Origin: a bacterium
GTDB lineage: Bacteria > Patescibacteriota > Minisyncoccia > Phycocordibacterales > JAKAEA01
Reading direction: 5' to 3'
Assembly (NCBI GenBank): GCA_021818465.1
Contig: JAKAEA010000002.1
Location: 31,882 to 95,881 of the forward strand
DNA length: 64,000 nucleotides
Under the pieces are notes generated by a model that had not been told where the DNA came from, searched no databases, and saw only the letters and a program-made list of their open reading frames with translations. The translations under genes and the position numbers were made by a program. Shown here piece after piece: positions 5,170 through 57,165 of the stretch (positions are counted from its first letter, which is position 1; each line of letters begins with the position of its first letter).

Positions 5170-5174
5170 GTAGA

Positions 5175-6074: not shown

Positions 6075-6125
6075 TGTTTCATTTTACCATACACAAATAC
6101 TAATCTTAAAAAAACGCGAACAAAA

Positions 6126-6854: not shown

Positions 6855-6866
6855 ATTCGTAGTATA

Positions 6867-7337: not shown

Positions 7338-7383
7338 ATCACTTTATAATACCAACGAAAAAAATGACACATGCGCACAGTAT

Positions 7384-7656
7384 TTACTGCACCGCTGCCG
7401 CTGGTGTTTGTGTTAGCGTCGGCGTAAAGGCGGGCGTATGCGACTGAATTTGCATTTCACCAAGTACCACAAACACAATTGCACCTATAAACATAATAAG
7501 AGCTAGGCCAATAATGATAGCGGTGCCAACATTTTTTGATTTAGCAATATGATACCGAATCAAAAAACGAACAAGTGGAGAAGAGACCGATTCTTCAATA
7601 AGCTTGCGCTCAGTCGGTTTAAATGATTCTTCTTCAAATTGAACACCGGAAGACAT
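7384..7656 (-). CDS. Small membrane protein (one C-terminal TM helix), hypothetical
   Basis: 90-aa ORF between gap and rpiB on the same strand; hydrophobic segment AIIIGLALIMFIGAIVFVVLG. Confidence 0.35.
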   Translation of the reverse strand: MSSGVQFEEESFKPTERKLIEESVSSPLVRFLIRYHIAKSKNVGTAIIIGLALIMFIGAIVFVVLGEMQIQSHTPAFTPTLTQTPAAAVQ

Positions 7657-7670
7657 GGTTAGCTATGTTA

Positions 7671-8705
7671 TTAAAGTTGCTGCGCAGCTCGTATGACGTG
7701 TTCCACTAATGAATGGGTGTACCCCATTTCATTGTCGTACCACGCCATCACCTTCACAAGCGTACCGTCTACAACACGAGTCAAACCCAAGTCGGCAATA
7801 GACGCGTGACTATCACCGACAATATCACTCGAGACTAATGGCTCATCGGTTACAGCAAACGTTTTTTGCCACTGCGGATCAGCTGCTGCTTTTTTCAAAA
7901 TAGCATTAACTTCTTCAACACTCGTCGGCCGTTTGGCAATAAATGTAATATCGGCTATAGAACCAGTAATAACCGGCACACGAATAGAAATGCCATCAAA
8001 TTTACCCTTCAGAGCCGGCACAGCTTTAGTCACAGCAATAGCCGCACCAGTTGATGTCGGTACCAAGTTATGAGCGGCCGCTCGTCCTTCTTTCCAATCA
8101 CCTTTCTTACTCGGCCCATCAACAAGCGCCTGACTTGCCGTATATCCATGTACCGTATTGAGAATCGCTTTTTCAATACCAATTGTTTCGTTTAAAATTT
8201 GAATGACTGGCGAACTAGCATTCGTGGTACATGATGCATTGGAGCTCAACTGACTGGCATCGAGTTCATGCTCGTTAATCCCCATAAGAACGGTCACACC
8301 GGCAACAGCGGATGATGGATCATCTTTGGCGGGCGCACTAATAACAACACGCTTTGCTCCCGCTGAAATATGAGCCGAAGCTTTACCAAAATTAGTAAAG
8401 AAACCAGTGGATTCAATAACAATATCGATATTTAAATCTTTCCACGGCAAAGCCGCTGGATCTTTTTCTGATAGATATGCCACTTCCGTACCGTTTACAA
8501 TAAGAGCCTTCGCGTCATCACGAACCGTAATATCAAGTCCGCTGCGGCCATATGCAGAATCATATTTGAGTAAGTAAGCAATGTTGTGAATGTCTGCTAA
8601 ATCATTCATCGCCACCACCTCAAGTTCGGGTCGGGTGATAGCAACTTTATAAAATGCTCGGCCGATACGGCCAGCGCCATTGATGGCAATGCGTATTTTT
8701 TTCAT
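7671..8705 (-). CDS. gap: Glyceraldehyde-3-phosphate dehydrogenase
   Basis: N-terminal IAINGAGRIGR NAD-binding motif and SNASCTTNASSPV active-site Cys motif. Confidence 0.92.
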   Translation of the reverse strand: MKKIRIAINGAGRIGRAFYKVAITRPELEVVAMNDLADIHNIAYLLKYDSAYGRSGLDITVRDDAKALIVNGTEVAYLSEKDPAALPWKDLNIDIVIESTGFFTNFGKASAHISAGAKRVVISAPAKDDPSSAVAGVTVLMGINEHELDASQLSSNASCTTNASSPVIQILNETIGIEKAILNTVHGYTASQALVDGPSKKGDWKEGRAAAHNLVPTSTGAAIAVTKAVPALKGKFDGISIRVPVITGSIADITFIAKRPTSVEEVNAILKKAAADPQWQKTFAVTDEPLVSSDIVGDSHASIADLGLTRVVDGTLVKVMAWYDNEMGYTHSLVEHVIRAAQQL

Positions 8706-9370: not shown

Positions 9371-10756
9371 TTACTTTCTACGCCAAAAAAATGTCGCGAG
9401 ATGTAATTTCTCAGGCACGCGATTGAGATATGGAATATAGGGAAACAAAATGAGTAAAAGAACCAATGCGCCAAGAATTTCCGCGCCATCTCGATCGCCA
9501 TTAGGATCATTGGCGAGCACAGTATGATCTAACACGCCAAGCGGCGCCAGCCACCATGCTCCTGGTGGAACACTGCGCCCTTCCTCGTGAATCATTCCCC
9601 ACTGGTCGGTTGTTATGTGCAAATCACTCGCTTCATCATCCATCACACCAGTATCATCCAAGAAACGGAGTGAGTAGGTTGGCGCAATCGTGGGCGCTTC
9701 AGCATCCACTACCGCCTGATAGGTACCGCTGCTACTCATATGTACGAGCGATGTAATAACTGAAAGAAAGGGATTACCAATTGTAGACGTGGCAACTGAT
9801 GCGCCCTGGAAATACGCTTCGGCAGTTGTAATATCACTTTTTTGTTGAGCGGCCGACTCAGCAAAAAATACCGTCAGCTCATTGGGACCACCCGCAAGCG
9901 CCACGTACTGATCGTACGGCTTCACAATATACACCGTGCGCGTATTAAATGTGTAAGGATCAATAGAATCAAAATAGGTTGCTGTATCAGAGGTGTGATT
10001 AAATTCAGCAATAAGTGTTTGGGCAACACCGGCAGCATCGTCGGCAGCCACAGAAGCAATGGTAGCTGGTGTAATAAGCGGCGAAGGAAAAATAATTGCT
10101 AAAACAACAATGCACACCACAAGAACCCCACCTCGCACAAAAAGCTTTGTGTGATTTGCTGGCACAATCGGCACACGCACATCCTGCCGATACGGCGATG
10201 CAATGCCACGCGCTTTCACTAAAAGATAGTGCGTCAGCAGCAGGCCAAGCATAATGAGTGGAAGAATAACGATATGCAGACCGAATACTTGGAGATGGTT
10301 AAGTGTGTTTATATAATAGCCAAGATACGCACCATTCCAAAAATCAGCACCTTGTAAAGCGCGATATTGGGAAGAAAAATCACCACGCAAGTAATAACCA
10401 AATTCTGCTTCAAGTAATAAAAATACAAGCACGATAGCTCCCAGCGTCCACGTCAATCGACGTGGATGTTTAAAACCGCTCGTGGCAAATACCACCAACA
10501 GGTGCAACAAAATAATGAGAACGAACGCCTGCGCCGCCCACAAGTGAATGCTACGAAACAGAATTCCCCAAAAATTTATTGTCCACCACGCACTCCCCTC
10601 AAACACCATAACCAGACCAGTACCAAGCAAGATTGCAAAACACACCAATCCCAAAAATCCGAGTGAATAAAAAATACTATTGCCGTAGCGCGGCACATCA
10701 GTAATAAAAATTTTTTTTCTAATAATGCCGAGCACGCCTGGCGTATCGTTCTGCAT
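9371..10756 (-). CDS. Cytochrome b/b6 N-terminal-domain protein fused to a large extracytoplasmic domain and a terminal TM helix
   Basis: FRSIHLWAAQAFVLIILLHLLVVF has two His 14 residues apart (helix B heme ligands). PRRLTWTLGAIVLVFLLLEAEFGYYL parallels QcrB/PetB PRELNWIVGVLIF...GYLLPWD. HLQVFGLHIVILPLIMLGLLLTHYLLVKARGIASP parallels the helix-D His-containing segment. This is followed by about 250 non-hydrophobic residues and a final TM helix. Confidence 0.6.
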   Translation of the reverse strand: MQNDTPGVLGIIRKKIFITDVPRYGNSIFYSLGFLGLVCFAILLGTGLVMVFEGSAWWTINFWGILFRSIHLWAAQAFVLIILLHLLVVFATSGFKHPRRLTWTLGAIVLVFLLLEAEFGYYLRGDFSSQYRALQGADFWNGAYLGYYINTLNHLQVFGLHIVILPLIMLGLLLTHYLLVKARGIASPYRQDVRVPIVPANHTKLFVRGGVLVVCIVVLAIIFPSPLITPATIASVAADDAAGVAQTLIAEFNHTSDTATYFDSIDPYTFNTRTVYIVKPYDQYVALAGGPNELTVFFAESAAQQKSDITTAEAYFQGASVATSTIGNPFLSVITSLVHMSSSGTYQAVVDAEAPTIAPTYSLRFLDDTGVMDDEASDLHITTDQWGMIHEEGRSVPPGAWWLAPLGVLDHTVLANDPNGDRDGAEILGALVLLLILFPYIPYLNRVPEKLHLATFFWRRK

Positions 10757-38649: not shown

Positions 38650-39933
38650 ATGTTTTCTGAGCTACGAAACCGCACGTATCGTTTTTTGCGCTGGAGCGAG
38701 CGTTATACAAAAATGGACATGATCTACTTGACATCTGGAAGTTTTTGGGCCGTATTTGGACAATTCTCTGCAGCCATTATTGCCTTTGGACTAGCAATTG
38801 CCGTAGCGCGTTTCGTATCCAAAGACGTCTACGGTACCTATAAATACGTTTTAGCTATCGTTTCAGTTGTCGCTACCCTTTCGCTAAGTGGCATTGGTCA
38901 GGCCGTCTTTCAATCCATCACTCGCGGCTTCCGTCGCTCGCTCTCCGACGGATTCTGGGCAAATTTACGCTGGAGTTTTTTAGTTTTTATAATCACTCTT
39001 ACTGTTGGTGGATACTACCTTTTCCAAGGCAATCAAACACTTGGTTTGGGTATTTTACTTGGTGGCTGTATAACACCATTTCTTTCCGGCTTTAATTTAT
39101 ACACATCACTCTTCTCTGGTGAAAAAGATTTTCGACGCGCAGCATGGTATGGCGACGTTGTCACCAACATCATTCCCGCACTCACCTTGATAGCGGTTGC
39201 CCTTATTGCTCCCACTGCACTCAATTTGGTTATCGCCTATTTTCTCGCAAACCTTGCTGCTGCTGCATATAGTTATTGGCGCGGCACACGACATTATCGT
39301 TCAACAGCCGATGCTGCACATGATCCTGATCTACTTTCGTATGGCAAACACCTAAGTTTAATGGCCGTCTTAAGTGGCATCGCTGGCAATATTGACCAAC
39401 TGCTACTTTTTCACTTTGGTGGCGCTATTGATCTTGCTATCTATAATTTTGCCATTGCTATTCCTGATCAAGCAAAAGGCCCTCTTAAGCAACTCGATAC
39501 GATGACACAAGCTCGTTTTGTTAATCGAACTACTCATGACATTCATACGAGTTTGCGTAACAAAATGCTGTGGCTCACTGCAACAAGTATTATTACTATA
39601 AGTGTTTACGTTATAGTCGCTCCATTCATCTACCAATTATTTTTCCCTGCGTACAGCATTGCTGCTGCGTATTCTCAAATTTATGCACTATCATTATTCT
39701 CAATGATTATAAGTCCTGCTGCTTCATATCTTTCAGCAAAAAAACGAGTACGAGCTCTGTATGTTAATACTTTCGGCAGTTCCATCTTACATATCGGACT
39801 TATGGTAATTGGTGTAGTTTGGTTTGGTTTATGGGGTTTAATTATTGCTCGCGTTTTCATTCGACTTGGTGGTGCTCTGTTATCACTTGGACTCTATTAC
39901 CGAACGACGCGTCTTGAACGAAAAACAATATGA
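38650..39933 (+). CDS. Polysaccharide biosynthesis protein / oligosaccharide flippase (Wzx, MOP superfamily)
   Basis: 427 aa with about 12-14 TM helices and Wzx-like topology. The stop overlaps the start of the downstream methyltransferase (ATGA). Confidence 0.6.
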   Translation: MFSELRNRTYRFLRWSERYTKMDMIYLTSGSFWAVFGQFSAAIIAFGLAIAVARFVSKDVYGTYKYVLAIVSVVATLSLSGIGQAVFQSITRGFRRSLSDGFWANLRWSFLVFIITLTVGGYYLFQGNQTLGLGILLGGCITPFLSGFNLYTSLFSGEKDFRRAAWYGDVVTNIIPALTLIAVALIAPTALNLVIAYFLANLAAAAYSYWRGTRHYRSTADAAHDPDLLSYGKHLSLMAVLSGIAGNIDQLLLFHFGGAIDLAIYNFAIAIPDQAKGPLKQLDTMTQARFVNRTTHDIHTSLRNKMLWLTATSIITISVYVIVAPFIYQLFFPAYSIAAAYSQIYALSLFSMIISPAASYLSAKKRVRALYVNTFGSSILHIGLMVIGVVWFGLWGLIIARVFIRLGGALLSLGLYYRTTRLERKTI

Positions 39934-40862
39934 AAAATATTCCATGTATATTGTGTGGAAAAAATAAAGCGGATACCGTAAAACGTCTGCGTGATATGCA
40001 TATGTATATTGATAGATCTACATTTACTCTTGTTCGCTGTCGCCAATGTGGTCTTATGTACCTAAATCCTCAACCAACAATAGAAGAATTGGCTCGTTAC
40101 TATCCTCCCCATTATTCTGCATACTGCAATGAAGTATCAGTTTTTGGACAAAATTATTTTTACAACGTTCTGCGACATATAAAACGTTTTTTTACATCGC
40201 ACCGTTCCATAAAAGTTTTTACAAAACTACACAACGATAACTCGAGTAAAACCGTTTTAGATTTCGGTTGTGGCAATGGCACCTACCTCTTAGGTTTACG
40301 TCACAACCACCCATCATGGAAACTATATGGTTCAGATATTCAAATAAATGAAACAGTAAAAAATGCACTTGAGAAAAATACTATCGTAACAATAATAGGA
40401 CCAACACACCTACCTTGGAAACAATTACCAACAAAAAGTTTTGATCGCATAACTCTTTTTCAAGTATTAGAACATGTAAATAATCCTCGTGAGGTTTTGG
40501 AAAATCTTCGACCGCTGCTTAAAAAAGATGGGGAGTTGCATATTGAAGTTCCTAATATTGCTACCTTAAAATTTAAAATTTTTGGACGTTATTTTTCCAA
40601 TCTTGATGCCCCGCGCCATCTCTATCATTTCTCACCCAATACACTTCAGCGTCTTTGTGAGCAGTGTGGTTTCCGTATTACGAAACTAGAGGTATCCGGC
40701 ACCACAAAAAGCACCGTACGCAGTCTATATAATTTGTTTCATATTCACAATCGCCAACTTGATCCGTTACTCTATAGTCTTGTGGATATACTCACAAAAT
40801 ATATCGGTAAAAATCGCCTTAATACCGAAGCGTTAGAGGTTAGATGTGTACCTGCCAAATAA
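39930..40862 (+). CDS. Class I SAM-dependent methyltransferase with N-terminal zinc-ribbon (CxxC...CxxC)
   Basis: CILCG...CRQCG zinc ribbon followed by the VLDFGCGNGTYLLGL SAM motif I. Confidence 0.7.
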   Translation: MKNIPCILCGKNKADTVKRLRDMHMYIDRSTFTLVRCRQCGLMYLNPQPTIEELARYYPPHYSAYCNEVSVFGQNYFYNVLRHIKRFFTSHRSIKVFTKLHNDNSSKTVLDFGCGNGTYLLGLRHNHPSWKLYGSDIQINETVKNALEKNTIVTIIGPTHLPWKQLPTKSFDRITLFQVLEHVNNPREVLENLRPLLKKDGELHIEVPNIATLKFKIFGRYFSNLDAPRHLYHFSPNTLQRLCEQCGFRITKLEVSGTTKSTVRSLYNLFHIHNRQLDPLLYSLVDILTKYIGKNRLNTEALEVRCVPAK

Positions 40863-41810
40863 TTTTTTTAACCAATGATATGGGCGTGGATAGTGCCATT
40901 TTAAAAACCATTTAAAACGTTGCATGTGTGTGCGGCCAATACCAAAAACATATTGAGAAGTGTACCGTTCCGCTTGTTGATTAATTACGAAAAAGTTAGG
41001 GTGCTTGAGTGGAAACATCATTGATTCGGATGGGATATTGGCAAGTGGATCATTTGGATTTTTTGCTGAGACTGCCTCTTGTCCAAAACCAATATTGGTC
41101 ACGAGATTAACACACGGATTAATGCAAAGACCACCTTGCGACAAAACTGCAAACGTCCACTGTCCATCCCATGACCGAATGCGATCTTCGTAATAGTCTT
41201 GGAAACGTTGTTCCCAACGGTAGGCTACCGCTGGATCAGAAAAGATATTGTATGTCAGTTGTTGCTTTCGTGCTTCAGGCCAATGCTGTACGTCAGGATC
41301 ATAATGCACCCAAGCACGTCGCCAACTTGCCCAACCCCAAATATGCGGGATGTGCGAAAAATAATAACTTTCTCGACAAACAAATTTTTTATTATTTTGT
41401 TGAAAATTATTACCACCAATATGCATCACCCGCGTATCATCAGCATAACGTTCTAAAAGTTCTTCGCAAAAACGAAAAAAACTCTGATTTGGTAAACAAT
41501 CATGCTCAAGAATAATAGCGCGTTCTTCGTTTTCAAAAATCCACTGAAGACCAGTTGCTAAACGACGTTTTACGTCCATGTGTTCTGTAGCATAATTAGT
41601 TCGCACTTCACACCAATCAATTTTCTCCACAAGCGCTTTGCTAGCAGCAAACCTTGCCTTATCTGCGGGCGTTTGCCCTTCATCACAAAAGCAATAGAGT
41701 ATTTTCGGCCGCGCTTCTTTAATGGCAGCAATCACACGCGTCAGTGTTTCGGTTCGATTAGAAAGCACGAGAGCAACGGGTGTGTGTAGTTGATATATTT
41801 TTTCATTCAT
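40833..41810 (-). CDS. Putative glycosyltransferase (GT-A-like; HlpA/EPS-cluster-like), family uncertain
   Basis: 325-aa soluble protein inside the glycan cluster with DxD-like acidic motifs (ILEHDCLP). Internal Met at 41810 (MNEKIYQL) is the likely start. Assignment is by context and weak resemblance only. Confidence 0.35.
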   Translation of the reverse strand: MNEKIYQLHTPVALVLSNRTETLTRVIAAIKEARPKILYCFCDEGQTPADKARFAASKALVEKIDWCEVRTNYATEHMDVKRRLATGLQWIFENEERAIILEHDCLPNQSFFRFCEELLERYADDTRVMHIGGNNFQQNNKKFVCRESYYFSHIPHIWGWASWRRAWVHYDPDVQHWPEARKQQLTYNIFSDPAVAYRWEQRFQDYYEDRIRSWDGQWTFAVLSQGGLCINPCVNLVTNIGFGQEAVSAKNPNDPLANIPSESMMFPLKHPNFFVINQQAERYTSQYVFGIGRTHMQRFKWFLKWHYPRPYHWLKKLFGRYTSNL

Positions 41811-43050
41811 AAAAAGCAGTATAGACTTTTTCTGTGCGTTGCACCCAATCATCTAGAGAAAAAAGATTTTTGACTCTTTTATAACCAGCTATTCCTAATG
41901 TGTGTTGTAATTTTTGATCAGCAAGAATTTTTTCTAGAGCAACAGAAAAAGCATGTATATCGTTCGGATCAATAATGAATCCTGTTTCTCCATTTTTTAC
42001 CATTTCAGGAGTACCGCCCCAACATGTGCCCACAACTGGTTTACGAGAAGCCATCGCTTCCAACACAACCGTCGGTAATGGATCAAGATAAAGGGATGGC
42101 ACCACAACAACACTCGCCGCCGCGTATATTGTCGTCAGCTCATCACCACTAAGCCAGCCCATGCTCACCACGTTTTCTTTCATTCCCCACGCTGCTGCTT
42201 GTTGTATTAGTTGATTACTATATGCAGTAGATGCACCAAGAAGTACGAGAGTCGCTGATGGTTCTTTATGTATCACGTGTCGCATCGCTTGTAGTATTAC
42301 ATTACCACCTTTAGAAGCACTTATTCGTCCACCAAACAACACAATTCGCTTTTGTTCTAGGTGATTTTTTTTAATATACACATCTACTTGCTGTACTTGC
42401 ACATCCCATGCCTCTACAGCAATACCGTTATGTATCATTGCAATATTATGAATACCATTTTCTTGTAACGCACTTTGGAGAGCATTACTAACAGCAAATA
42501 TTTTATGAACATTTTTTAATAAAATTTTAATAAAAATATTTCTAAAAGGATTGTATCGGAATCGGTATTCACACCACTGCTGCCATGCTGATAACACATA
42601 ATTCCCTTTTTTATTTTTAAAAAGTTTTCCGTAATGCACAAGCATTGCATCATGTGCGGTTAAAAAGACTTTTGCACCACTTCGATGTGCTTGATGAAGC
42701 GTCCAATACGACAAATGATAATGAATATTGTGCGCATGCACTACATCTGGTTTTATTTCTCTAAGCAAACGACTCACTGTTGAAACTGTTGTTGGATTAT
42801 ACAGGCTTCGCCACCCTCGCCAACGCTCGGTGTAGTTAGAATATATCCGCTCTACTCGAATCCCATCTTCGTAAAATGTGCCTGTATGTGCACGATTTCC
42901 AACCGCAGTAATAACAGTTACTGTATGCTTTCGCCGAACAAGTGCACGAGCAAGCGTATGTGCAACAATCCCTGCCCCACCCTTAGCATATGGTGGAAAA
43001 TCGTCTTGAAGAAAAAGTATGTTCATTTTTTTTGAAATACTGCGCACCAC
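41803..43050 (-). CDS. Glycosyltransferase family 4
   Basis: N-terminal GGAGIVAHTLARAL Gly-rich motif and C-terminal Glycos_transf_1 (LVLLGAS...; EAMASRKPVVGT). Confidence 0.8.
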   Translation of the reverse strand: MVRSISKKMNILFLQDDFPPYAKGGAGIVAHTLARALVRRKHTVTVITAVGNRAHTGTFYEDGIRVERIYSNYTERWRGWRSLYNPTTVSTVSRLLREIKPDVVHAHNIHYHLSYWTLHQAHRSGAKVFLTAHDAMLVHYGKLFKNKKGNYVLSAWQQWCEYRFRYNPFRNIFIKILLKNVHKIFAVSNALQSALQENGIHNIAMIHNGIAVEAWDVQVQQVDVYIKKNHLEQKRIVLFGGRISASKGGNVILQAMRHVIHKEPSATLVLLGASTAYSNQLIQQAAAWGMKENVVSMGWLSGDELTTIYAAASVVVVPSLYLDPLPTVVLEAMASRKPVVGTCWGGTPEMVKNGETGFIIDPNDIHAFSVALEKILADQKLQHTLGIAGYKRVKNLFSLDDWVQRTEKVYTAFYE

Positions 43051-43712
43051 CCTATAGTATGTTTACGATTGGCAACAGAATGGTCACGACGATCACGCCA
43101 TATCGCTAACCGACCCCATAGAGCAAAAATCTTGCTGGCTATTCGCCCCCCCCAAGGATGGTTGTGCAGATGGAATACGTCTATATAAAATCGCATAGCC
43201 ATTTGAGCTCGCGTTGAAAAATATCCACCGCGCTGATCGATACTAATAAGTTTTAGATCATGCCGTTCAAAAAGTGCGACTAGTCCATAGCGAGTATAAC
43301 GCCAATAATCGTGTGGTTCTTCATGAAGTTCATTCCACTGCGGTACTGTAATAAGTAGGTATCCATCTTTTCTTAGAACTCTCCCCACTTCCGTTGCGGC
43401 TTGTTCAGGATTTTCCACATGCTCAAAAACCTGCGTTGAAATTATTGCATCGAAACATGTATCAGGAAATGGTAATTTTTCAGCACGTCCCACCACATCA
43501 ACATTTTCGCCGGCAGCAATATCCATACGTACATACTCAGTTACTGTCGTTGGCAGTTCATATCGCTCAAACTGACCACTACCAATATTTAATGTTTTTC
43601 CTTTTAAATATCTGATTTTTTCAGCAATTTGTTTCTGTAAAAGAAACCTGTCAACTTGAAAAATATACATATGTTTATGAATTGTATTAACCGAGTATAT
43701 GCACAATCTCAT
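43023..43712 (-). CDS. Class I SAM-dependent methyltransferase (Methyltransf_11-like)
   Basis: TLNIGSGQFER...FDAIISTQVFEHVENP...LRKDGYLLITVP. True start is probably an internal Met near 43670. Confidence 0.7.
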   Translation of the reverse strand: MRLCIYSVNTIHKHMYIFQVDRFLLQKQIAEKIRYLKGKTLNIGSGQFERYELPTTVTEYVRMDIAAGENVDVVGRAEKLPFPDTCFDAIISTQVFEHVENPEQAATEVGRVLRKDGYLLITVPQWNELHEEPHDYWRYTRYGLVALFERHDLKLISIDQRGGYFSTRAQMAMRFYIDVFHLHNHPWGGRIASKIFALWGRLAIWRDRRDHSVANRKHTIGWCAVFQKK

Positions 43713-51345: not shown

Positions 51346-52479
51346 TCAACAAAAAAATGTCGTATCCATCCTCTCGGCAAGCAGGTCCCAATCATACGCC
51401 ACAACCAGCTTCTTGCCGTTTGCAATCAGTGTCGCCTGTAGCGTAGCGTCATGCATTATTTTTTGTACTGCCGTAGCAATACTGTGAGGATTATGCGGCT
51501 GACAAAAAACACCAGTTTCTCCATCATGCAAAAAATCAGGAATGCCCCCAACCGGCGTACCCACAATCGGCACACCCGCAGCCATTGCTTCAATAAAAAC
51601 ATTACCCATCCCCTCTGAACGTGAGGGGCGAATAAAAATATCGCTGGCCGAAAGCCACACGGGCAGCTCACCATGAGGCACCTGCCCAGCAAAAAAAACT
51701 CTAGTAGATAGACCGAGAGCGACCGTCTGTTCGCGTAATTTTTTTTCTAACACACCCGTACCAAGTATATAGAGGCCAACATGTTCAGGTAGTATAGCGA
51801 GAGCGCGTAGAATGTCTTCTGTGCCATTCTTTTCTACTAATCGGGAAACCGTGATGAGACGCACGGTCACGTGCGGCAACTGTTGAAGAATTTTTTGTTG
51901 TTCGATGTGCGCGATAGTGGCACCGAATTTTTTTACATCAACACCATTAGGAATAATTTCTATTGGTGCTCGTGCCCCCATATCGTGCGCAAAATGTCGT
52001 AGATATGAAGAAATTGCCTGAATTCGATGGGCCTGGCGAAAAATTTGCGTGAAGAGTGGCCACACAATCATCGCTCGATGTTTGGGTCGCTCGAGCGGAT
52101 CTCCTTCCTGAAGCGACAAAAAATACGGCACCTGAGGATACAACATTTTAAAAAAAATAGCAGCAAAACCACTGAAACTAGCCATAATACTCCACGTTGC
52201 CGTAAAAGACTTTTTTGTATGCAGTCGGCGCGCCAGATACAGTGCGGCAAATGGATATAGTATTTTATAGAAATACCCCCGCCCACCAAGTCGGTGTACA
52301 CGCACCGCCCCCACCACTTCGTCTCTCGACTCACGACCAGTAAGATTAATGGTGATCATCTCAAATTCATACCCACGTCGCGCCAGACGATCGGTAATTT
52401 CTTTAACAGCAATTTCCGCCCCGCCCACCCACGGCAAGTACGCAGTAGAAAAAATAAGAATTCGTTTATTCGCCACCAT
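51346..52479 (-). CDS. Glycosyltransferase family 4
   Basis: LPWVGGAEIAVKEITDRLARRGYE; C-terminal RPSRSEGMGNVFIEAMAAGVPIVGTPVGG. Internal Met at about 52479 is the likely start; the track ORF runs to 52551. Confidence 0.8.
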   Translation of the reverse strand: MVANKRILIFSTAYLPWVGGAEIAVKEITDRLARRGYEFEMITINLTGRESRDEVVGAVRVHRLGGRGYFYKILYPFAALYLARRLHTKKSFTATWSIMASFSGFAAIFFKMLYPQVPYFLSLQEGDPLERPKHRAMIVWPLFTQIFRQAHRIQAISSYLRHFAHDMGARAPIEIIPNGVDVKKFGATIAHIEQQKILQQLPHVTVRLITVSRLVEKNGTEDILRALAILPEHVGLYILGTGVLEKKLREQTVALGLSTRVFFAGQVPHGELPVWLSASDIFIRPSRSEGMGNVFIEAMAAGVPIVGTPVGGIPDFLHDGETGVFCQPHNPHSIATAVQKIMHDATLQATLIANGKKLVVAYDWDLLAERMDTTFFC

Positions 52480-54256
52480 TGAGAATATTGCGCAACACTG
52501 ATTCCGGCACTTCTTGTGTCTCGTGTACTGGGCGTGTATTTTTTTCGGCAACTGTAGCAGGTGTGTCAGATTTTTTTTCTTCTTTTTTAGGCGCCGCGAC
52601 AGATGTGGGGACGGCTCGTGACAGTGCTGATGCCGTTGACTGTTTTTCTTTTACTGCTGCTTCAATTGCGTTTCGTAACGCATTTTTATTTTCTGTCGAT
52701 AGCGTTTTTGTAGTAGCATTCGACGTGAAAGGATGCGGCGTCGGGGAACTAGGGCGAGGCTGTGACGGTGGTACCACAGGTGGTTGATGCGGTTTGACCT
52801 GCTGCTGTGGCCGCGCACCATCTGCCGCCGGTCGCTCAAATTTTCTATCACGTGAGCCACGGTTTTCCTGAGAAGAACCAATACCATTTTGCTGCTGACG
52901 GGAACTTGGTGGCGACACTATTGGCGCATGCCAATCGCGAATTATTTTCTCAACATCTGCGCGCGGCCGAGCAAAAAATTCTCGCGAAAAGGTAATCACA
53001 TCTTCCTTGAAAGAGACCGTGGGCGCATCAATGGGTGGCAAGGTGCGTGCCGAAAATGGCTGCGATGTGACACCATCAATCATCAACTTTAAATAAATCT
53101 GTACGAATCCCAAATTCACCAAATCCTCCTTAGTAAAAGTGGGGAAAAATTCTTTCTCCAGTACCTCGGCATCGTAGGCACCAACACGAAACACAATCAT
53201 GGTGCCCACGTTGCCAAACACAGCCGCTCGCACCTCTTCACTCATTTGCTCAATATACTGATGGGCAATCGTGAGATTGAGTTTGTATTTGCGGGCTTCT
53301 GAAAGAATATCAGCGAATGACTCATTGGCGAACGATTGAAATTCATCCACATACAAATAGAAATTCGGCAATGCTTTTTGCGAAGCGCCAGACACGTCAG
53401 CACGCGACATTGCCGCCAAATAAATTTTGGTAATAATCATTGAGCCAAGCAAGTTGGCATTCATTTCCCCCACTCGCCCCTTAGATAGGTTAATAATAAT
53501 AATTTTTCGCTCATCCATCATTGCGCGTAAATCAAATGTGGACTTTGATTGACCGATAATGTTGCGTACCAGCGGATTAGACACAAATTGACCGACTTTA
53601 TTCTGAATTGCCGCAGTTGCATCGGTAGCAAGTCGGTCGTTATATTTAGCAAATTCATCTGTCCAAAATGCTTTTACCGAAGGATCGGTAACCTTTTCCA
53701 CCACTTTATTTCTATAAGCCTTGTCAGCAAACATTCTGTTAACGCCCAAAATAGTCGCGCCAGGATATTCCAAAAGAGCCAGGAGTGCATTGTTGAGAAT
53801 GTATTCCATGCGCGCACTCCATGCATCCACCCAAATTTTCTTAAACGCACTCATAAGACCACTCACCACCAAGTGGCGCTTATCAAAACCAACATCTTCC
53901 ATAACGTTAAAAGCGATCGGATATTCCAGATCAAATGGCGCGAAATAGAGCACATCCTTCATCCGCTCCGGCGGAATGTAATCAAGCAGAAGTTCAGCTG
54001 TTTTACCGTGCGGATCAATAAAAGCCAATCCTTCACCAGCAGCAATATCTTGAATGGCCATATTTTCTAATACCGTCGACTTACCCATACCGGTTTTGCC
54101 GATGATGTAGGTATGACGTGAACGATCATCGCTCTTAATGCCAAAAGGGATACGCTGACCACGGCTATCTGTTTCAGCAAAATAGGTTATCCGATTACCA
54201 TTAATAACTGGCGGCGTCTTTTTATTTTCATGGTTACGAGGAGGCATACGATACAA
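52466..54256 (-). CDS. TraG/TraD/VirD4-family or HerA/FtsK-like P-loop ATPase (type-IV-secretion-coupling-protein-like), soluble, with Pro/Gln-rich disordered C-terminal tail
   Basis: Walker A YIIGKTGMGKST; downstream hydrophobic-DE Walker B (LYVDEF); about 430-aa ATPase core followed by about 160 aa of low-complexity P/Q/S tail. No TM helices and no other T4SS genes nearby. Confidence 0.55.
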   Translation of the reverse strand: MYRMPPRNHENKKTPPVINGNRITYFAETDSRGQRIPFGIKSDDRSRHTYIIGKTGMGKSTVLENMAIQDIAAGEGLAFIDPHGKTAELLLDYIPPERMKDVLYFAPFDLEYPIAFNVMEDVGFDKRHLVVSGLMSAFKKIWVDAWSARMEYILNNALLALLEYPGATILGVNRMFADKAYRNKVVEKVTDPSVKAFWTDEFAKYNDRLATDATAAIQNKVGQFVSNPLVRNIIGQSKSTFDLRAMMDERKIIIINLSKGRVGEMNANLLGSMIITKIYLAAMSRADVSGASQKALPNFYLYVDEFQSFANESFADILSEARKYKLNLTIAHQYIEQMSEEVRAAVFGNVGTMIVFRVGAYDAEVLEKEFFPTFTKEDLVNLGFVQIYLKLMIDGVTSQPFSARTLPPIDAPTVSFKEDVITFSREFFARPRADVEKIIRDWHAPIVSPPSSRQQQNGIGSSQENRGSRDRKFERPAADGARPQQQVKPHQPPVVPPSQPRPSSPTPHPFTSNATTKTLSTENKNALRNAIEAAVKEKQSTASALSRAVPTSVAAPKKEEKKSDTPATVAEKNTRPVHETQEVPESVLRNILNGGE

Positions 54257-54353
54257 AAAATTATACTATAAAATTCGTTGTTTTAGAAGGTGCTGTGACA
54301 CATTGCATACGGCGGTCAAAAGAAGTACTCTATAGACATACTTACCCATACTA

Positions 54354-55502
54354 TTGTACACGCATATGGCTCTTGAAACATATCAACAAGAACAAGAACG
54401 ACACAGTACCCCAGCTCAACCCGCACAGCCGGTAGAAAACCTATATAGTCTGAAAACTGTACTACGCAATCCTGAACTGAATACTCTTTTTAGTAAATAT
54501 ATATCATTACAAAACGATGATGCGCACAAAAAAATATTCGCGCATTTACATTCTGAAAACCCCAATCTTTCAAACGATGAAATGGATGTTTTGAAACAAT
54601 TAGAGGATGGATTTTCAAAACACATGCGCGCCGTTGATACTTTCAAACAACAACTAACCCCAAAAATAATTACTGAAATGGGTCGAGATCCTCGTTTCAA
54701 AGAACTGATTCAACGACTCGGGGGCGAATCGGAAACAAAGAATTTTTTTACCAAAAACGTAGCCGAATGGAGTGTAAAAGAACCTTCTCTTCTTAATGCT
54801 ATTACTCAGAGCATAACCGAGCTTCAAGCTTACGAAAACGGTGAATTAAAAACGCTTAACGATGAAATTGTGAAGCGCTGTAAAGAAGAAAAAATCAACG
54901 TTAATGCATATATGAGAGTTATGGCAATTAAAGATGACGCTGAACGACAAGAAGCTTTAAAAAATTTTATGAGAAATGTGCAAGGAGAACGGGGCTTGGT
55001 TAAAAAAGGCCTTGATTGGCTACGGGGAGAATCTTCAAAAGATATATTGAAACGTTTATTAGAACCTGGTGCCAGAAAAGAAGATATCGATGATCATTTA
55101 AGAGAACTTCAACAACGCAAACAATCTTTAGGCCAGATACTTGCAGCAAGTATTGAAAACAACCAAACTGTCCGTACATCATTTGTGCGAGATATATTGG
55201 GAACATCTCTTGTACAAGAACCAGGAATGAAAGAAGCTGCACAAAAAATTCGTGAAGCTGCACAGATTAACAATAACGATTTGCAGCGCTTTTGGAGAGA
55301 GAAAAAAATAGAAATAATAAAACAACAAGGGAAAGGGGCTTGGAGTCAAATTCCCAAGAACGAACAAGAGCAAATACGAAAAGAATTTATTCAGGATATT
55401 TTTGAAAAACAAAAAGCAAAAATCCAAAAACCAGGTTGGTTTGATATTTTGGAATATTTATTTGATATGTTTTTTACTATTGATAAAAATTCACTACAAT
55501 AA
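54354..55502 (+). CDS. Hypothetical Lys/Glu-rich alpha-helical protein (382 aa), AT-rich codon usage
   Basis: Long ORF with strongly charged helical composition and no recognisable motif. Divergent from the ATPase gene; stop overlaps the next ORF start. Confidence 0.5.
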   Translation: MYTHMALETYQQEQERHSTPAQPAQPVENLYSLKTVLRNPELNTLFSKYISLQNDDAHKKIFAHLHSENPNLSNDEMDVLKQLEDGFSKHMRAVDTFKQQLTPKIITEMGRDPRFKELIQRLGGESETKNFFTKNVAEWSVKEPSLLNAITQSITELQAYENGELKTLNDEIVKRCKEEKINVNAYMRVMAIKDDAERQEALKNFMRNVQGERGLVKKGLDWLRGESSKDILKRLLEPGARKEDIDDHLRELQQRKQSLGQILAASIENNQTVRTSFVRDILGTSLVQEPGMKEAAQKIREAAQINNNDLQRFWREKKIEIIKQQGKGAWSQIPKNEQEQIRKEFIQDIFEKQKAKIQKPGWFDILEYLFDMFFTIDKNSLQ

Positions 55503-55504
55503 CC

Positions 55505-55792
55505 ATGAACCAATCTTTACAAGAACAGTTTTTAAAAATTATAGAAACCGGTGATGAAGAAGCGGCTGAGAAATTTCTGATTGCGCACATACAGGAATTT
55601 TCAGAACCATTGCAAAAGAAAATCGCTTTTGCTTTTCTAGAAAAAACTGTACGCAAACAAACTACTGAAACCGAAGCTATTATAGATTTTCAAAAACAAG
55701 CACTGGCAGCATTTGATGACATAGAAAAAGAAGAGCGCATACTTACTGACAAAAAGAAAGAACTAGAGACCAGGGAGCAACTGGGGTTGTAA
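55505..55792 (+). CDS. Hypothetical small helical protein (95 aa)
   Basis: Start 3 nt after the upstream stop (translational coupling) with similar composition. Confidence 0.4.
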   Translation: MNQSLQEQFLKIIETGDEEAAEKFLIAHIQEFSEPLQKKIAFAFLEKTVRKQTTETEAIIDFQKQALAAFDDIEKEERILTDKKKELETREQLGL

Positions 55793-55812
55793 TTTTTCTA
55801 ATAACGCATATT

Positions 55813-57165
55813 CTAGTTCCCCGTCAAAAGCTGTTTCGTAGCAGTGTAGGCATTGCTCGGATCCCAAATGATCCAGCTACTGAGGCCCACGTCTTGAATC
55901 GCCCGCATTTCGTCGGCAATCATGGCAGGAGTATATGAAATTCCATGAAGAGTGAAGTCTTGAATCCACGGGCGCAATTCTGAAGGACTCGTCCGACGAC
56001 GATCAGCTAGCGGAATAGCTAGAATACTAGCAATAACGCCCGCAGTGCGAGGCACACCATAGGACGTAGTGGTAGCAACACTCCCTTGAGCCAAACGCGT
56101 GGCACGATACACCGCTGAACTCATTGCTTCTTGCACAACTTGATAGGGATATTTGTCCGGCGGCGTAAAACCACCCCACCCATTTACGAAATGTGATGGA
56201 TATACTTCTGGATCAACATAATCAAAATATGGCAGAGCATCTTCCAACACTTCGCCAATACCCATATCGCCAGACGTTGTCGTTGTCTGACCAAAAAGAT
56301 CTTGCGATATTTTTAAACCCGGACCAGAGTGACTTGTAGGGCCGCGGTAATCGTGTAAATTTTTATACAAATATTGATACACCCGAGTTAACACCACTGG
56401 CGCCGGTGTTGATCCGCTTGCTGGAAATACCGCATCGGCCACGTCACCATCTGAAGGAAATCTCATATAATCAAAATTGACTTCGTCGAAACCTCGAGCA
56501 TAAGCTTCTTGGGCAATGTGTACGAAATAATTCCAGTCGCCTGTAGCGGCTGGATCAATCCACATATTTCCATGTGCATCTTTCCAAGGAGTACCGATGA
56601 GATTAGCTGGTGTACGAATGCGTTTTCCCGCAACGTTCATCATATATTTGCCATACTGAACTGCCCACGCTGGATGTTTCTGTGCCATAAGCGGATCTTC
56701 AAACACATTTACACGACCAATAACATACACTCCGGCGGCATGTAATTGAGCAATCAGTGCATCGATATTTGAAATGCGATTTTGATATGTATGGAGCGCC
56801 CGCAGCGTTGGATCATTGGGGACAAATGAAAGGTATCCGGTTTCGTCTTTGATATCAATAACTACTGCATTAAGTTTAGTTGATTCAATTAGTGAAAAGA
56901 GTGGTGCACGCAAACGTGGTGTACCTGCCACCCAACTAGTAAGATATAGTGCCCTAATAGAAGCCGGCGCCGAAATATGATTGGTTGTAGACGACACTTC
57001 TTCGGTTGTTGGCAACGTCGAAACCGACACTGCACTCGATACAGGAGAGACCTTACTACTGTACACCACCTGATTAATTCCTGGTAAAAAACTGCCGGCA
57101 ATACCACACGCTACAATAACCATAACGAGCGCGCCAACACTACGCAGCCGGCCTGTACGTTTCAT
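55813..57165 (-). CDS. Membrane-anchored putative glycoside-hydrolase-like TIM-barrel protein (GHL/DUF4015-like)
   Basis: N-terminal TM anchor and S/T linker, then ALYLTSW...LNAVVIDIKDETGYLSF...GVYVIGRVNVFEDP and FDEVNFDYMRFP motifs reminiscent of GH-like TIM barrels. Assignment is tentative. Confidence 0.45.
   Translation of the reverse strand: MKRTGRLRSVGALVMVIVACGIAGSFLPGINQVVYSSKVSPVSSAVSVSTLPTTEEVSSTTNHISAPASIRALYLTSWVAGTPRLRAPLFSLIESTKLNAVVIDIKDETGYLSFVPNDPTLRALHTYQNRISNIDALIAQLHAAGVYVIGRVNVFEDPLMAQKHPAWAVQYGKYMMNVAGKRIRTPANLIGTPWKDAHGNMWIDPAATGDWNYFVHIAQEAYARGFDEVNFDYMRFPSDGDVADAVFPASGSTPAPVVLTRVYQYLYKNLHDYRGPTSHSGPGLKISQDLFGQTTTTSGDMGIGEVLEDALPYFDYVDPEVYPSHFVNGWGGFTPPDKYPYQVVQEAMSSAVYRATRLAQGSVATTTSYGVPRTAGVIASILAIPLADRRRTSPSELRPWIQDFTLHGISYTPAMIADEMRAIQDVGLSSWIIWDPSNAYTATKQLLTGN

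What the first reader, a model, noticed from the sequence alone, without database searches (positions are those of the whole stretch)
52466..55792. Orphan TraG/VirD4/HerA-like ATPase divergently paired with two AT-rich K/E-rich helical proteins
A soluble 596-aa P-loop ATPase (Walker A GKTGMGKST) of the coupling-protein / HerA-FtsK type, with a 160-aa Pro/Gln-rich disordered tail, sits between the glycan cluster and a GH-like gene. No other type IV secretion, pilus or conjugation gene is in the window. Divergently transcribed from a shared 97-bp intergenic region is a translationally coupled pair of highly charged helical proteins (382 aa and 95 aa). Their codon usage is visibly more AT-rich than the surrounding genes. 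The arrangement of a DNA-translocase-like ATPase with an unknown partner pair resembles remnants of conjugative elements or ATPase-based defence modules, and the composition suggests foreign origin.
Basis: partly seen in the sequence, partly recalled or inferred. Interest (0 to 1): 0.55.

Follow-up and report, generated by a model that had tools for sequence, protein, structure and literature searches.

The report
Core secretion-type ATPase, inserted partner pair
The motor-protein gene that looked like a stray relic of DNA-transfer machinery is a standard, fixed-position gene of these ultra-small bacteria; only the two helical-protein genes next to it are a lineage-specific insertion, and that gene pair tends to sit beside motors of this same family in other genomes.

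Summary
In detail: all three ORFs, the Walker A motif, the disordered tail and the AT-rich composition are there, with minor start-codon corrections.

The ATPase is not an orphan or a relic. It is the short paralogue of the VirD4/TrwB-type coupling-protein-like ATPases found in nearly all Patescibacteria. Its core is 55-80% identical across at least 590 species genomes. Its neighbours are fixed: DUF4015 upstream in 63 of 86 loci and GT4 glycosyltransferases downstream in 56 of 86.

In the closest relatives, DUF4015 and the ATPase are 12-39 bp apart. Here a 1.5-kb segment carrying the 378-aa and 95-aa genes lies between them. The large gene has the lowest GC3 of 48 window genes.

The pair is not an ORFan. 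It belongs to a fast-evolving two-gene family (about 355-420 aa plus 93-101 aa, 98 distant homologues) with no known domain.

The pair lies next to an ATPase of this family in 4 of 9 contexts, which represent 3 of 6 independent neighbourhoods. Usually that ATPase is a long DUF8128-fused paralogue, 42% identical in the core. That suggests, but does not prove, a partner or client role.

No defence or conjugation signature was found.

The parts
52466..54247 (-). Short VirD4/TrwB-type coupling-protein-like ATPase, 593 aa from ATG 54247. The maximal ORF from TTG 54256 gives 596 aa.
   Evidence: Pfam hits PF10412, PF02534, PF12696 and PF01935 are all above their gathering scores. The best fold matches are DotL, TrwB and Cag-beta.
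54074..54100 (-). Walker A motif GKTGMGKST (residues 50-58)
   Evidence: Invariant in 26 homologues. Aligns with the TrwB P-loop.
53339..53362 (-). Walker B motif FYLYVDEF (residues 296-303)
53513..53887 (-). Predicted all-alpha domain inserted in the nucleotide-binding domain (residues about 121-245)
   Evidence: The AlphaFold model shows eight helices between strands 99-102 and 249-253, with pLDDT 85-95. Foldseek aligns about 440 columns to TrwB, DotL and Cag-beta.
52469..52927 (-). Disordered Pro/Gln/Ser/Thr/Ala-rich C-terminal tail (residues 441-593)
   Evidence: Length and sequence vary among homologues.
52643..52690 (-). Conserved tail helix NKNALRNAIEAAVKEK, a candidate docking motif
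   Evidence: Conserved NxxALRxAL block in alignment A1. Predicted helix 518-538. Coordinates.
52481..52516 (-). Conserved C-terminal motif QEVPESVLRNIL, a candidate docking motif
   Evidence: The (K/Q)EVPExVLRxIL block is present in 23 of the 26 aligned homologues. Predicted helix 582-588. Coordinates.
54260..54265 (-). -10 box TATAAT of the ATPase's own promoter, 12 nt upstream of the ATG
   Evidence: The same TGnTATAAT geometry occurs in relatives L002-L006, inside their short (36-39 nt) DUF4015-ATPase spacer.
54248..54365 (.). 118-bp divergent intergenic region between the ATPase and the inserted pair
   Evidence: A -10-like TATAGA lies about 37 nt upstream of the large gene's ATG. Comparable -10-like hexamers lie upstream of the large gene in the seven other loci shown.
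54366..55502 (+). 378-aa all-helical K/E/Q-rich protein. It belongs to an unnamed fast-evolving family of 355-420 aa.
   Evidence: There are 98 full-length distant homologues at 19-34% identity, aligned as A2. No Pfam, PHROG, PADLOC or PDB match was found.
55431..55481 (+). Conserved aromatic/hydrophobic C-terminal segment PGWFDILEYLFDMFFTI of the 378-aa protein, a possible membrane-binding or tail-anchor segment
   Evidence: GFWxxIFxxxF consensus in A2. Mean hydrophobicity reaches 0.62-0.69 over 19 aa in five members. Membrane binding is inferred only.
55505..55792 (+). 95-aa acidic (pI 4.8) helical protein, the obligate downstream partner of the large protein
   Evidence: It is 35-44% identical to the 93-100-aa genes that follow the large gene in the other loci with DNA. 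The L176 partner is a 70-aa C-terminally truncated copy. The two DNA-less contexts carry 99- and 101-aa genes at the same position. pI.
54270..55812 (.). Roughly 1.5-kb segment absent from the closest relatives, in which DUF4015 and the ATPase are 12-39 bp apart (approximate limits)
   Evidence: No terminal direct or inverted repeats. No tRNA here.
55813..57165 (-). DUF4015 putative glycoside hydrolase, the conserved upstream neighbour of the ATPase
   Evidence: E 2e-71. Upstream on the same strand in 63 of 86 loci.
51346..52479 (-). GT4 glycosyltransferase, the conserved downstream neighbour. Its ATG overlaps the end of the ATPase gene by 14 nt.
   Evidence: GT4 lies downstream in 56 of 86 loci.

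Best explanation
SHOWN: what the genes are
- The ATPase is the short paralogue of a coupling-protein-like (VirD4/TrwB fold) P-loop ATPase family that is chromosomally fixed across Patescibacteria.
- It has intact Walker A and B motifs, a predicted all-alpha domain and no membrane anchor.
- Its disordered C-terminal tail carries two conserved short helices.
- It is inherited vertically in the block MurD-MurC-DedA/VTT-DUF4015-ATPase-GT4. It has its own -10 box and is coupled to the downstream glycosyltransferase gene.
- The 378-aa and 95-aa genes are one copy of a fast-evolving accessory two-gene module: a large helical protein with a hydrophobic C-terminal segment, followed by a small acidic helical protein. 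In this lineage the module was inserted, with its own promoter, between DUF4015 and the ATPase promoter.

INFERRED: how they work
- The module recurs next to ATPases of this family in independent arrangements, so it most likely encodes proteins that work with such an ATPase.
- One possibility is a client/effector with a small chaperone or adaptor. Another is a membrane tether for the anchorless motor.
- Docking would be on the tail helices or the all-alpha domain, as small helical partners do on DotL, Cag-beta and TraD.
- By family analogy, the ATPase itself is probably a hexameric motor that feeds nucleic acid or protein substrates to a membrane channel. In Patescibacteria the T4SS genes are normally encoded elsewhere in the genome.

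Confidence by step:
- ATPase identity and core status: about 0.95.
- The pair is an insertion: about 0.85.
- Functional link between the pair and the ATPase: about 0.45.
- The specific client/adaptor mechanism: about 0.25.
For: ATPase family and fold:
- Pfam TrwB_AAD_bind, T4SS-DNA_transf, TraG-D_C and DUF87 all score above their gathering thresholds.
- The profile-to-PDB search hits only TrwB.
- The AlphaFold core has pLDDT 85-95.
- The best Foldseek matches are DotL 6sz9, TrwB 1e9s and Cag-beta 8dol (E 2e-9, target TM 0.53-0.55), ahead of HerA and VirB4.

Core status:
- More than 8000 homologues were found. The top 120 score at least 767 bits.
- 590 of 600 pattern hits in species-representative genomes were confirmed.
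- The published census found 5,713 VirD4-like T4CPs in 2,918 of 3,035 Patescibacteria genomes, only 148 of them near virB4 (PMC12102498).

Fixed neighbours:
-.

Insertion:
- DUF4015 and the ATPase are 12-39 bp apart in the 72%- and 66%-identity relatives, against 1556 bp here.
- No other short-ATPase locus carries the module.
- The large gene has the lowest GC3 of 48 genes here, while the module matches its locus GC elsewhere.

Module family:
-.

Linkage to the ATPase family:
- The module is divergent from the long paralogue in L094, with a 125-bp spacer. That is the same geometry as here.
- In L177/L178 the order is large gene, small gene, long ATPase, head to tail with 7-bp and 41-bp spacers.
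- In L090/L091/L102 the module is one gene upstream of the long ATPase.
- The long paralogue's core is 42% identical to this ATPase.
- That makes 4 of 9 contexts, or 3 of 6 independent neighbourhoods. The binomial P for 4 of 9 is 1e-6 to 8e-3, for assumed chance rates of 1-10%.
- A second pair (large protein plus a 95-97-aa protein) flanks the long ATPase in 11 of 73 loci. Its small member aligns end to end with the 95-aa family (hhalign probability 86%, E 6e-6).
Against: - None of the 85 other short-ATPase loci has the module within 8 kb.
- Only 1 of 80 long-ATPase loci matches the large-protein profile.
- 5 of 9 module contexts have no ATPase of this family within 8-10 kb.
- The DUF4015-ATPase spacer and the Map-long-ATPase spacer are both variable slots that hold many unrelated inserts. 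Co-location could therefore reflect permissive landing sites.
- Homology between the large proteins of the two pair families is inconclusive (hhalign probability 37%).
- The ATPase is near-universal while the module is rare, so the ATPase does not need it.
- There is no structural or physical evidence of interaction.
- The one Tn-seq study cited found the T4CP homologue non-essential in a Saccharimonadia strain.
Confidence: 0.5

Rival explanations
1. Chance neighbours. The pair is an unrelated accessory cassette, for example a membrane-associated scaffold or stress protein with a small partner. It landed in a permissive intergenic slot at an operon boundary and has nothing to do with the ATPase.
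For: - The DUF4015-ATPase spacer carries unrelated inserts in about half of 63 loci: pilins, Mur ligases and singletons.
- The Map-long-ATPase slot is also variable, holding reverse-transcriptase-like genes and giant proteins.
- The module has its own -10-like promoter element in every context.
- It sits in non-ATPase contexts in 5 of 9 cases.
- 85 short-ATPase loci lack it.
Against: - Three independent neighbourhoods place it directly beside two different paralogues of one ATPase family, in three different gene orders (and the window).
- This pair superfamily is the commonest variable neighbour of the long ATPase, with 6 cluster-19 hits at position -1.
- Even at a generous 10% chance rate, 4 of 9 gives P = 0.008.
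Confidence: 0.35
2. The ATPase together with the pair is a remnant of a conjugative element or an ATPase-based anti-phage defence module of foreign origin.
For: - T4CP-type domains are present.
- PADLOC gives weak partial matches to mad8 (E 2e-14) and HerA models.
- Plasmid-borne homologues of the core exist at up to 42% identity, some in conjugation regions.
- The pair has low GC3.
Against: - The ATPase has native composition (GC3 0.41). It shows 55-80% identity and conserved synteny across the class. Its stop overlaps a core glycosyltransferase gene.
- The pair has no PADLOC, PHROG, phage-record or plasmid-record match.
- No relaxase, VirB4, integrase or terminal repeats are present.
Confidence: 0.03
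3. The ATPase serves cell-envelope glycan or wall biogenesis together with its fixed neighbours: DUF4015 hydrolase, the GT4 cluster and MurC/MurD. It might, for example, energise export or assembly, rather than any type-IV-secretion-like substrate transfer.
For: - DUF4015 lies upstream in 63 of 86 loci and GT4 downstream in 56 of 86.
- The ATPase and GT4 genes overlap by 14-17 nt in the window and in L002.
- Pilin, O-antigen-ligase-like and MurB genes also occur nearby in relatives.
Against: - No known glycan pathway uses a TrwB-fold ATPase (established knowledge).
- Synteny in tiny, slowly rearranging genomes can be purely historical.
- The ATPase has its own promoter.
- The paralogue sits in a completely different conserved block, SecY-Adk-Map-ATPase-NDK.
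Confidence: 0.08

Closest known systems
Type IV coupling proteins TrwB (R388), VirD4 and TraD/TraG
   Same: RecA-like nucleotide-binding domain with Walker A and B motifs. A predicted all-alpha domain is inserted in it. Pfam TrwB_AAD_bind, T4SS-DNA_transf and TraG-D_C score above threshold. These are the best fold matches.
   Different: There is no N-terminal transmembrane anchor. Identity to solved T4CPs is only 13-14%. NCBIfam equivalog scores are far below cut-off. No relaxase or VirB genes are nearby. The gene is chromosomal, core and syntenic with envelope genes.
VirD4-like T4CP homologues of Patescibacteria (Quinonero-Coronel et al. 2025, PMC12102498)
   Same: Same phylum and same situation. 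The census found about two T4CP homologues per genome in 96% of genomes, almost never near virB4. The authors raised possible exaptation. The short and long paralogues seen here fit that count.
   Different: As far as it was read, the paper does not split short (tail-bearing) from long (DUF8128-fused) forms. It does not describe their fixed syntenies or mention an associated helical two-gene module.
T4CPs with small helical partner proteins: DotL-IcmS/IcmW/LvgA, Cag-beta-CagZ, TraD-TraM
   Same: A coupling ATPase whose C-terminal tail or all-alpha domain is bound by small, often acidic, helical adaptor, chaperone or regulator proteins. 6sz9 and 8dol are among the top fold hits. Here there is a tail with two conserved helices and an adjacent small acidic helical protein.
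   Different: This is analogy only. There is no sequence or fold similarity between the 95-aa or 378-aa proteins and IcmS/W, CagZ or TraM. No interaction was tested.
Long paralogue: DUF8128 (PF26449) plus ATPase, the phrog_5156 / Bacillus phage SPO1 gp27.4 family
   Same: The ATPase core is 42% identical. The long form matches phrog_5156 end to end (E 4e-80). It is the usual neighbour of the helical module.
   Different: It has a roughly 500-aa N-terminal domain and no C-terminal tail. Its conserved block is different, SecY-Adk-Map-ATPase-NDK. In SPO1 and Bacillus plasmids it lies next to a nicking replication initiator or conjugation genes.
HerA/FtsK-type translocases, including defence-system HerA (Sir2-HerA, DUF4297-HerA)
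   Same: Same ASCE P-loop superfamily. DUF87 hit. Second-tier fold matches (E 1e-7 and weaker). Weak PADLOC HerA and mad8 matches.
   Different: No HerA N-terminal barrel domain and no FtsK gamma domain. No nuclease, Sir2 or DUF4297 partner. Fold scores are lower than for T4CPs.

Membership tests
Type IV coupling protein (VirD4/TrwB/TraD) | P-loop nucleotide-binding domain of the TrwB/FtsK/HerA type with Walker A and Walker B motifs | tested here: met
   GKTGMGKST and FYLYVDEF are invariant in 26 homologues. Both align to the TrwB motifs.
Type IV coupling protein (VirD4/TrwB/TraD) | All-alpha domain inserted in the nucleotide-binding domain; overall TrwB-like fold | tested here: met
   The AlphaFold model has a helical insert at residues 121-245 with pLDDT 85-95. 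The top Foldseek hits are DotL, TrwB and Cag-beta over about 440 columns, at E 2e-9 to 6e-8. This rests on a prediction, not an experiment.
Type IV coupling protein (VirD4/TrwB/TraD) | N-terminal transmembrane domain anchoring the hexamer at the membrane | tested here: not met
   The first strand starts at residue 20 and the N-terminus is hydrophilic. The highest 19-aa mean hydrophobicity is 0.52, within the helical domain.
Type IV coupling protein (VirD4/TrwB/TraD) | Curated family thresholds | tested here: inconclusive
   Pfam scores are above gathering: PF10412 26.3/20.5, PF02534 26.0/20.1, PF12696 23.8/22, PF01935 30.4/23.2. Every NCBIfam T4CP model is far below cut-off, for example TIGR03743 at 49.8/366.
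Type IV coupling protein (VirD4/TrwB/TraD) | Genetic linkage to a T4SS (VirB4, VirB6 and others) or a relaxase | tested here: not met
   None was found among the 32 scanned window ORFs or the seven further genes with precomputed Pfam annotation. The rest of the genome could not be read. The literature says this is the rule in Patescibacteria.
Type IV coupling protein (VirD4/TrwB/TraD) | Hexameric, nucleic-acid-stimulated ATPase that recruits substrates | not testable with these tools
   Needs biochemistry.
Patescibacteria short T4CP-like orthologue group (as delimited here) | At least 55% identity over residues about 20-440, a variable tail with ALRxAL and EVPExVLRxIL motifs, and synteny DUF4015-ATPase-GT4 | tested here: met
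   In this genome the synteny is interrupted only by the inserted pair.
HerA / FtsK translocases | HerA N-terminal barrel (HAS) domain, or FtsK alpha/beta/gamma architecture | tested here: not met
   No such domain is present in the sequence or the model. FtsK_SpoIIIE has no Pfam hit for the short form. HerA fold matches rank below T4CPs.
Known anti-phage defence systems (PADLOC) | A system-specific ATPase model together with its partner genes | tested here: not met
   There are only partial ATPase-domain matches (mad8 E 2e-14, HerA E 3e-10). Both partner proteins have no hit.
Unnamed helical two-gene module (355-420 aa plus 93-101 aa) | Full-length collinear homology of the large protein including the C-terminal GFWxxIF segment, with a homologous small gene 1-21 nt downstream | tested here: met
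   The small gene follows the large gene in all 9 contexts examined.

The most novel reading that the evidence does not exclude
The 378-aa plus 95-aa genes represent an undescribed, rapidly evolving client/adaptor module of the Patescibacteria coupling-protein-like ATPases. It could be an effector with its chaperone, or a membrane tether with an adaptor. Together with a sister pair family, it marks which proteins these enigmatic, near-universal motors handle. That would give the first experimental handle on what the 'exapted' T4CPs of Patescibacteria do, possibly in host-directed secretion or nucleic-acid acquisition.
Probability: 0.27. Interest if true: 0.7.

Novelty: new variant of a known kind. 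Interest (0 to 1): 0.4.

Why it matters
Patescibacteria keep about two VirD4-like ATPase genes in 96% of genomes, almost never next to their T4SS. Nobody knows what these ATPases do (PMC12102498). How these epibionts take nucleic acids and other material from hosts is also unresolved (bioRxiv 10.64898/2026.06.21.733656).

This locus adds nothing new about the ATPase as such, which is an ordinary member of that known family. The comparative work it prompted gives three usable leads:
- The family splits into a short, tail-bearing form and a long, DUF8128-fused form, each at a fixed chromosomal position.
- The short form's tail carries two conserved short helices that look like docking motifs.
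- A fast-evolving helical two-gene module recurs beside these ATPases.

If the module proteins really bind the ATPase, they are candidate substrates or adaptors. They could be tested directly by co-folding, two-hybrid assays, or pull-downs in cultivable Saccharimonadia or Paceibacteria co-cultures.

Tried and rejected
- Single-sequence AlphaFold of the 378-aa protein gave pLDDT 43.8. This is unusable for fold search, and it used one of the two prediction jobs before the homologues were known.
- The word-indexed protein search found only self-hits for both pair proteins. That wrongly suggested ORFans. Exhaustive phmmer corrected this.
- Neither pair protein has any significant match in Pfam, NCBIfam, PHROGs, PADLOC or PDB profile searches. 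The VPS4 MIT-domain hits to the small protein (E 0.2-0.4) are not significant.
- No terminal direct or inverted repeats, tRNA or integrase lie at the insert borders. The insertion mechanism is unknown.
- The viral-contig scan with the long paralogue's N-terminus found nothing. The large-protein alignment was too divergent for pattern scanning.
- The large protein has no match in phage or plasmid records.
- I checked whether the variable DUF4015-ATPase spacers in relatives hide tRNA or known RNA genes. None were found.
- The genes of 403 aa and 127 aa upstream of the long ATPase homologue on a Bacillus plasmid are not related to the module.
- Homology between the large proteins of the two pair families stayed inconclusive.

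Full report
**1. Observation**

The three ORFs exist as described. Public gene calls for the same contig (NCBI GCA_027341405.1, DAIEME010000002.1, 103 kb) and the orthologue N-termini place the starts at ATG 54247 (593 aa) and ATG 54366 (378 aa). The divergent spacer is therefore 118 bp.

- Walker A (residues 50-58) and Walker B (residues 296-303) are present.
- The protein has no hydrophobic segment.
- The last 153 residues are Pro/Gln/Ser/Thr/Ala-rich and are predicted disordered.
- The large gene's stop and the small gene's ATG are 2 nt apart.
- The pair is AT-rich at synonymous sites. GC3 is 0.251 and 0.292 against a window mean of 0.370 (sd 0.056), and the large gene is the lowest of 48 genes. 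It is also AT-rich because of its K/E/Q-rich composition, with GC2 of 0.25-0.30.
- Pfam scans of the two flanking genes and 30 other larger window ORFs show housekeeping and envelope genes only. Seven further glycan-cluster genes carry no T4SS family in the contig's precomputed gene table. Three ORFs at 39930-43050 and all small ORFs were not scanned.

**2. The ATPase is a core gene, not an orphan**

Family and fold:
- Pfam TrwB_AAD_bind, T4SS-DNA_transf, TraG-D_C and DUF87 all pass their gathering scores, but weakly. NCBIfam T4CP equivalogs are far below cut-off.
- A profile of 26 homologues hits only TrwB in the PDB.
- The AlphaFold model built on that alignment has a confident core (pLDDT 85-95), with an all-alpha insert at residues 121-245.
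- Its best Foldseek matches are DotL, TrwB and Cag-beta, ahead of HerA and VirB4.

By fold it is a coupling-protein-like ATPase that lacks the defining N-terminal membrane anchor.

Conservation:
- The word-indexed search saturated at 8000 hits. The top 120 score at least 767 bits, at 58-81% identity, and are named as Patescibacteria, Parcubacteria or Paceibacteria proteins.
- In alignment A1 about 210 columns are invariant. The variable tail keeps two short motifs, NxxALRxAL and (K/Q)EVPExVLRxIL, both predicted helical.

Synteny:
- In the genomes with 72%- and 66%-identical orthologues the order is PK-RadC-x-MurD-MurC-VTT-x-DUF4015-ATPase-GT4. DUF4015 and the ATPase are 12-39 bp apart on the same strand. 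A TGnTATAAT box sits in the spacer.
- Across 86 loci, DUF4015 lies upstream in 63 and GT4 genes downstream in 56.
- In the window the same -10 box is present 12 nt before the ATG. The ATPase stop overlaps the GT4 start by 14 nt.

The literature already records the general situation. There are 5,713 VirD4-like T4CP homologues in 2,918 of 3,035 Patescibacteria genomes. Only 148 are near virB4, relaxases are almost absent, and exaptation has been suggested (PMC12102498).

**3. The helical pair is an inserted copy of a sparse, fast-evolving two-gene module**

- In this genome 1556 bp carrying the two genes, on the opposite strand, separate DUF4015 from the ATPase.
- None of the 85 other short-ATPase loci carries a relative within 8 kb, by tblastn or by profile.
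- No repeats, tRNA or recombinase mark the borders.
- The indexed search found only self-hits. Exhaustive phmmer against 1.84 billion representatives found 98 full-length homologues of the large protein at 19-34% identity, mostly 350-420 aa.
- Alignment A2 shows end-to-end collinearity, an all-helical K/E-rich body and a conserved aromatic/hydrophobic C-terminal segment, GFWxxIFxxxF.
- In all nine genomic contexts retrieved, the large gene is followed by a small gene. In eight it encodes 93-101 aa. In L176 it is a truncated 70-aa copy. The spacers measured in the eight loci with DNA are 1-21 nt.
- In the loci with DNA these small proteins are 29-44% identical to the window's 95-aa protein.
- No Pfam, PHROG, PADLOC, PDB, phage-record or plasmid-record match exists for either protein.
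- Where the flanking long ATPases are 52-59% identical, the large proteins are 30-33% identical and the small ones 39-40%. The module therefore evolves roughly twice as fast.
- Elsewhere the module's GC equals its locus GC. Only here is it an outlier, which supports relatively recent acquisition.

**4. Is the pairing with the ATPase meaningful?**

From the module's side, yes, more often than chance.

- In L094 the module is divergent from a 930-aa ATPase across 125 bp, the same geometry as in the window.
- In L177/L178, a Nomurabacteria lineage seen in 127 data blocks, the order is large gene, small gene, 923-aa ATPase, head to tail with 7-bp and 41-bp spacers.
- In L090/L091/L102 a 119-aa gene separates the module from a 924-aa ATPase.
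- These long ATPases carry an N-terminal DUF8128 region plus a core 42% identical to the window ATPase over residues 21-440.
- The other contexts group into three neighbourhoods without such an ATPase:
  - L087 and L176, next to RbfA/IF-2.
  - The P0124 context and L095, next to MacB/RND/sigma-70 genes.
  - The P0137 context, next to a serine recombinase and a Phage_CRI replication gene.

- So 4 of 9 contexts, or 3 of 6 independent neighbourhoods, are ATPase-adjacent. For assumed chance rates of 1%, 5% and 10% per context, P(at least 4 of 9) is 1e-6, 6e-4 and 8e-3.

From the ATPase side the link is sparse.

- Only 1 of 80 long-ATPase loci matches the large-protein profile.
- However, 11 of 73 long-ATPase loci carry another pair directly beside the ATPase. 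It consists of a 394-442-aa helical protein, or a 697-1752-aa giant containing that domain, plus a 95-97-aa protein.
- The small proteins of the two families align end to end (hhalign probability 86%, E 6e-6). The large proteins align only over 120 columns (probability 37%).
- Both ATPase-flanking spacers are variable slots holding unrelated inserts. A landing-pad explanation therefore remains viable.

**5. Mechanism**

Shown:
- The family and fold of the ATPase, its intact motifs, the lack of an anchor and the conserved tail helices.
- Its core status and synteny.
- The pair as an inserted, autonomous module with its own promoter, and its recurrent adjacency to this ATPase family.

Inferred:
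- The ATPase is a hexameric motor that hands nucleic-acid or protein substrates to a membrane channel encoded elsewhere.
- The module proteins are clients, adaptors or a tether that dock on the tail helices or the all-alpha domain. The analogy is DotL-IcmSW, Cag-beta-CagZ and TraD-TraM. Those complexes are established knowledge, and two of them are among the top fold hits.

Relatives of the long form outside Patescibacteria give weak support for a nucleic-acid role of the wider family:
- SPO1 gp27.4 lies next to a nicking replication initiator and a partition protein.
- A Bacillus plasmid homologue lies upstream of TcpD/TcpE conjugation genes.

**6. Verdict**

- The ATPase is an ordinary member of a known but functionally unexplained family.
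- The pair is a real lineage-specific insertion of an undescribed family.
- A functional tie to these ATPases is plausible (about 0.45) but unproven.

Interest is moderate.

Noticed in passing
L090:10248-13022, L094:7083-9875, L177:11411-14182; 80 loci L096-L175: A long paralogue (about 915-995 aa; DUF8128 N-terminal region plus the same ATPase core, no tail) is itself a syntenic core gene of Patescibacteria. It sits in the block SecY-Adk-Map-[ATPase]-NDK-...-beta-CASP RNase-IF3. In L177 it has extra Cmk, ADK-like and CYTH genes nearby, a nucleotide-salvage flavour.
   Followed up: partly
L179 (Bacillus phage SPO1, 3884-6604) and L181 (B. subtilis plasmid, 4948-7689): The long form matches phrog_5156 end to end, the SPO1 gp27.4 family. 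In SPO1 it overlaps gp27.3 ('replication initiation by nicking') and follows a partition protein. On a 65-kb Bacillus plasmid a 913-aa homologue lies upstream of TcpD/TcpE conjugation genes.
   Followed up: partly
L105, L106, L118, L128, L132, L139, L158, L160, L166, L170, L174 (next to the long ATPase): A second helical gene-pair family flanks the long ATPase, either upstream or downstream. Its large member is 394-442 aa and its small member 95-97 aa. The large-protein domain also forms the C-terminus of giant proteins of 697-1752 aa (L174, L166, L132). The small member is probably a distant homologue of the window's 95-aa protein.
   Followed up: partly
window 54260-54265(-); L002-L006 DUF4015-ATPase spacers: The ATPase -10 box (TATAAT, TGnTATAAT in relatives) lies only 11-12 nt upstream of the ATG. 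This implies a leaderless or very short-leader mRNA.
   Followed up: no
window 52466-52479: The ATPase stop and the GT4 glycosyltransferase start overlap by 14 nt (17 nt in L002). The ATPase is therefore probably co-transcribed with the head of the glycan gene cluster.
   Followed up: partly
L007-L086, spacer between DUF4015 and the short ATPase: About half of the lineages carry unrelated inserts in this spacer. Type IV pilin genes (GFTLIELL N-terminus) occupy it in 5 loci. Others hold Mur ligases, a 1262-aa protein or singletons. Several GC-rich gaps of 300-800 bp have no tRNA or Rfam match.
   Followed up: partly
L127:8817-9932, L145:8531-9538, L149:8951-9961: Reverse-transcriptase-like genes (YADD motif, 335-371 aa) lie directly upstream of the long ATPase in three loci.
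   Followed up: no
P0137 context (no DNA) and L176:5314-8200: In one genome the module lies beside a serine recombinase and a Phage_CRI-type replication gene, which may be an integrated element. In another genome four T4SS_pilin (PF18895) genes lie 2-5 kb upstream of it.
   Followed up: no
window 9371-10756(-): A 461-aa ORF carries cytochrome b N-terminal domains (PF13631 E 1e-15, PF00033 E 9e-11). This is unexpected in a lineage usually described as lacking a respiratory chain. It lies next to a P-type ATPase.
   Followed up: no
window 39930-43712: Several glycan-cluster genes have GC3 of 0.26-0.28, as low as the inserted pair, and GC dips to 0.364 at 40-41 kb. This may be a horizontally exchanged part of the glycan cluster.
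   Followed up: no
L180 (Sulfitobacter mediterraneus plasmid, 5938-7125): A stand-alone 395-aa anchorless homologue of the ATPase core, 42% identical, sits among recombinase and transposase genes on an alphaproteobacterial plasmid. Soluble T4CP-like cores are therefore not confined to Patescibacteria.
   Followed up: no
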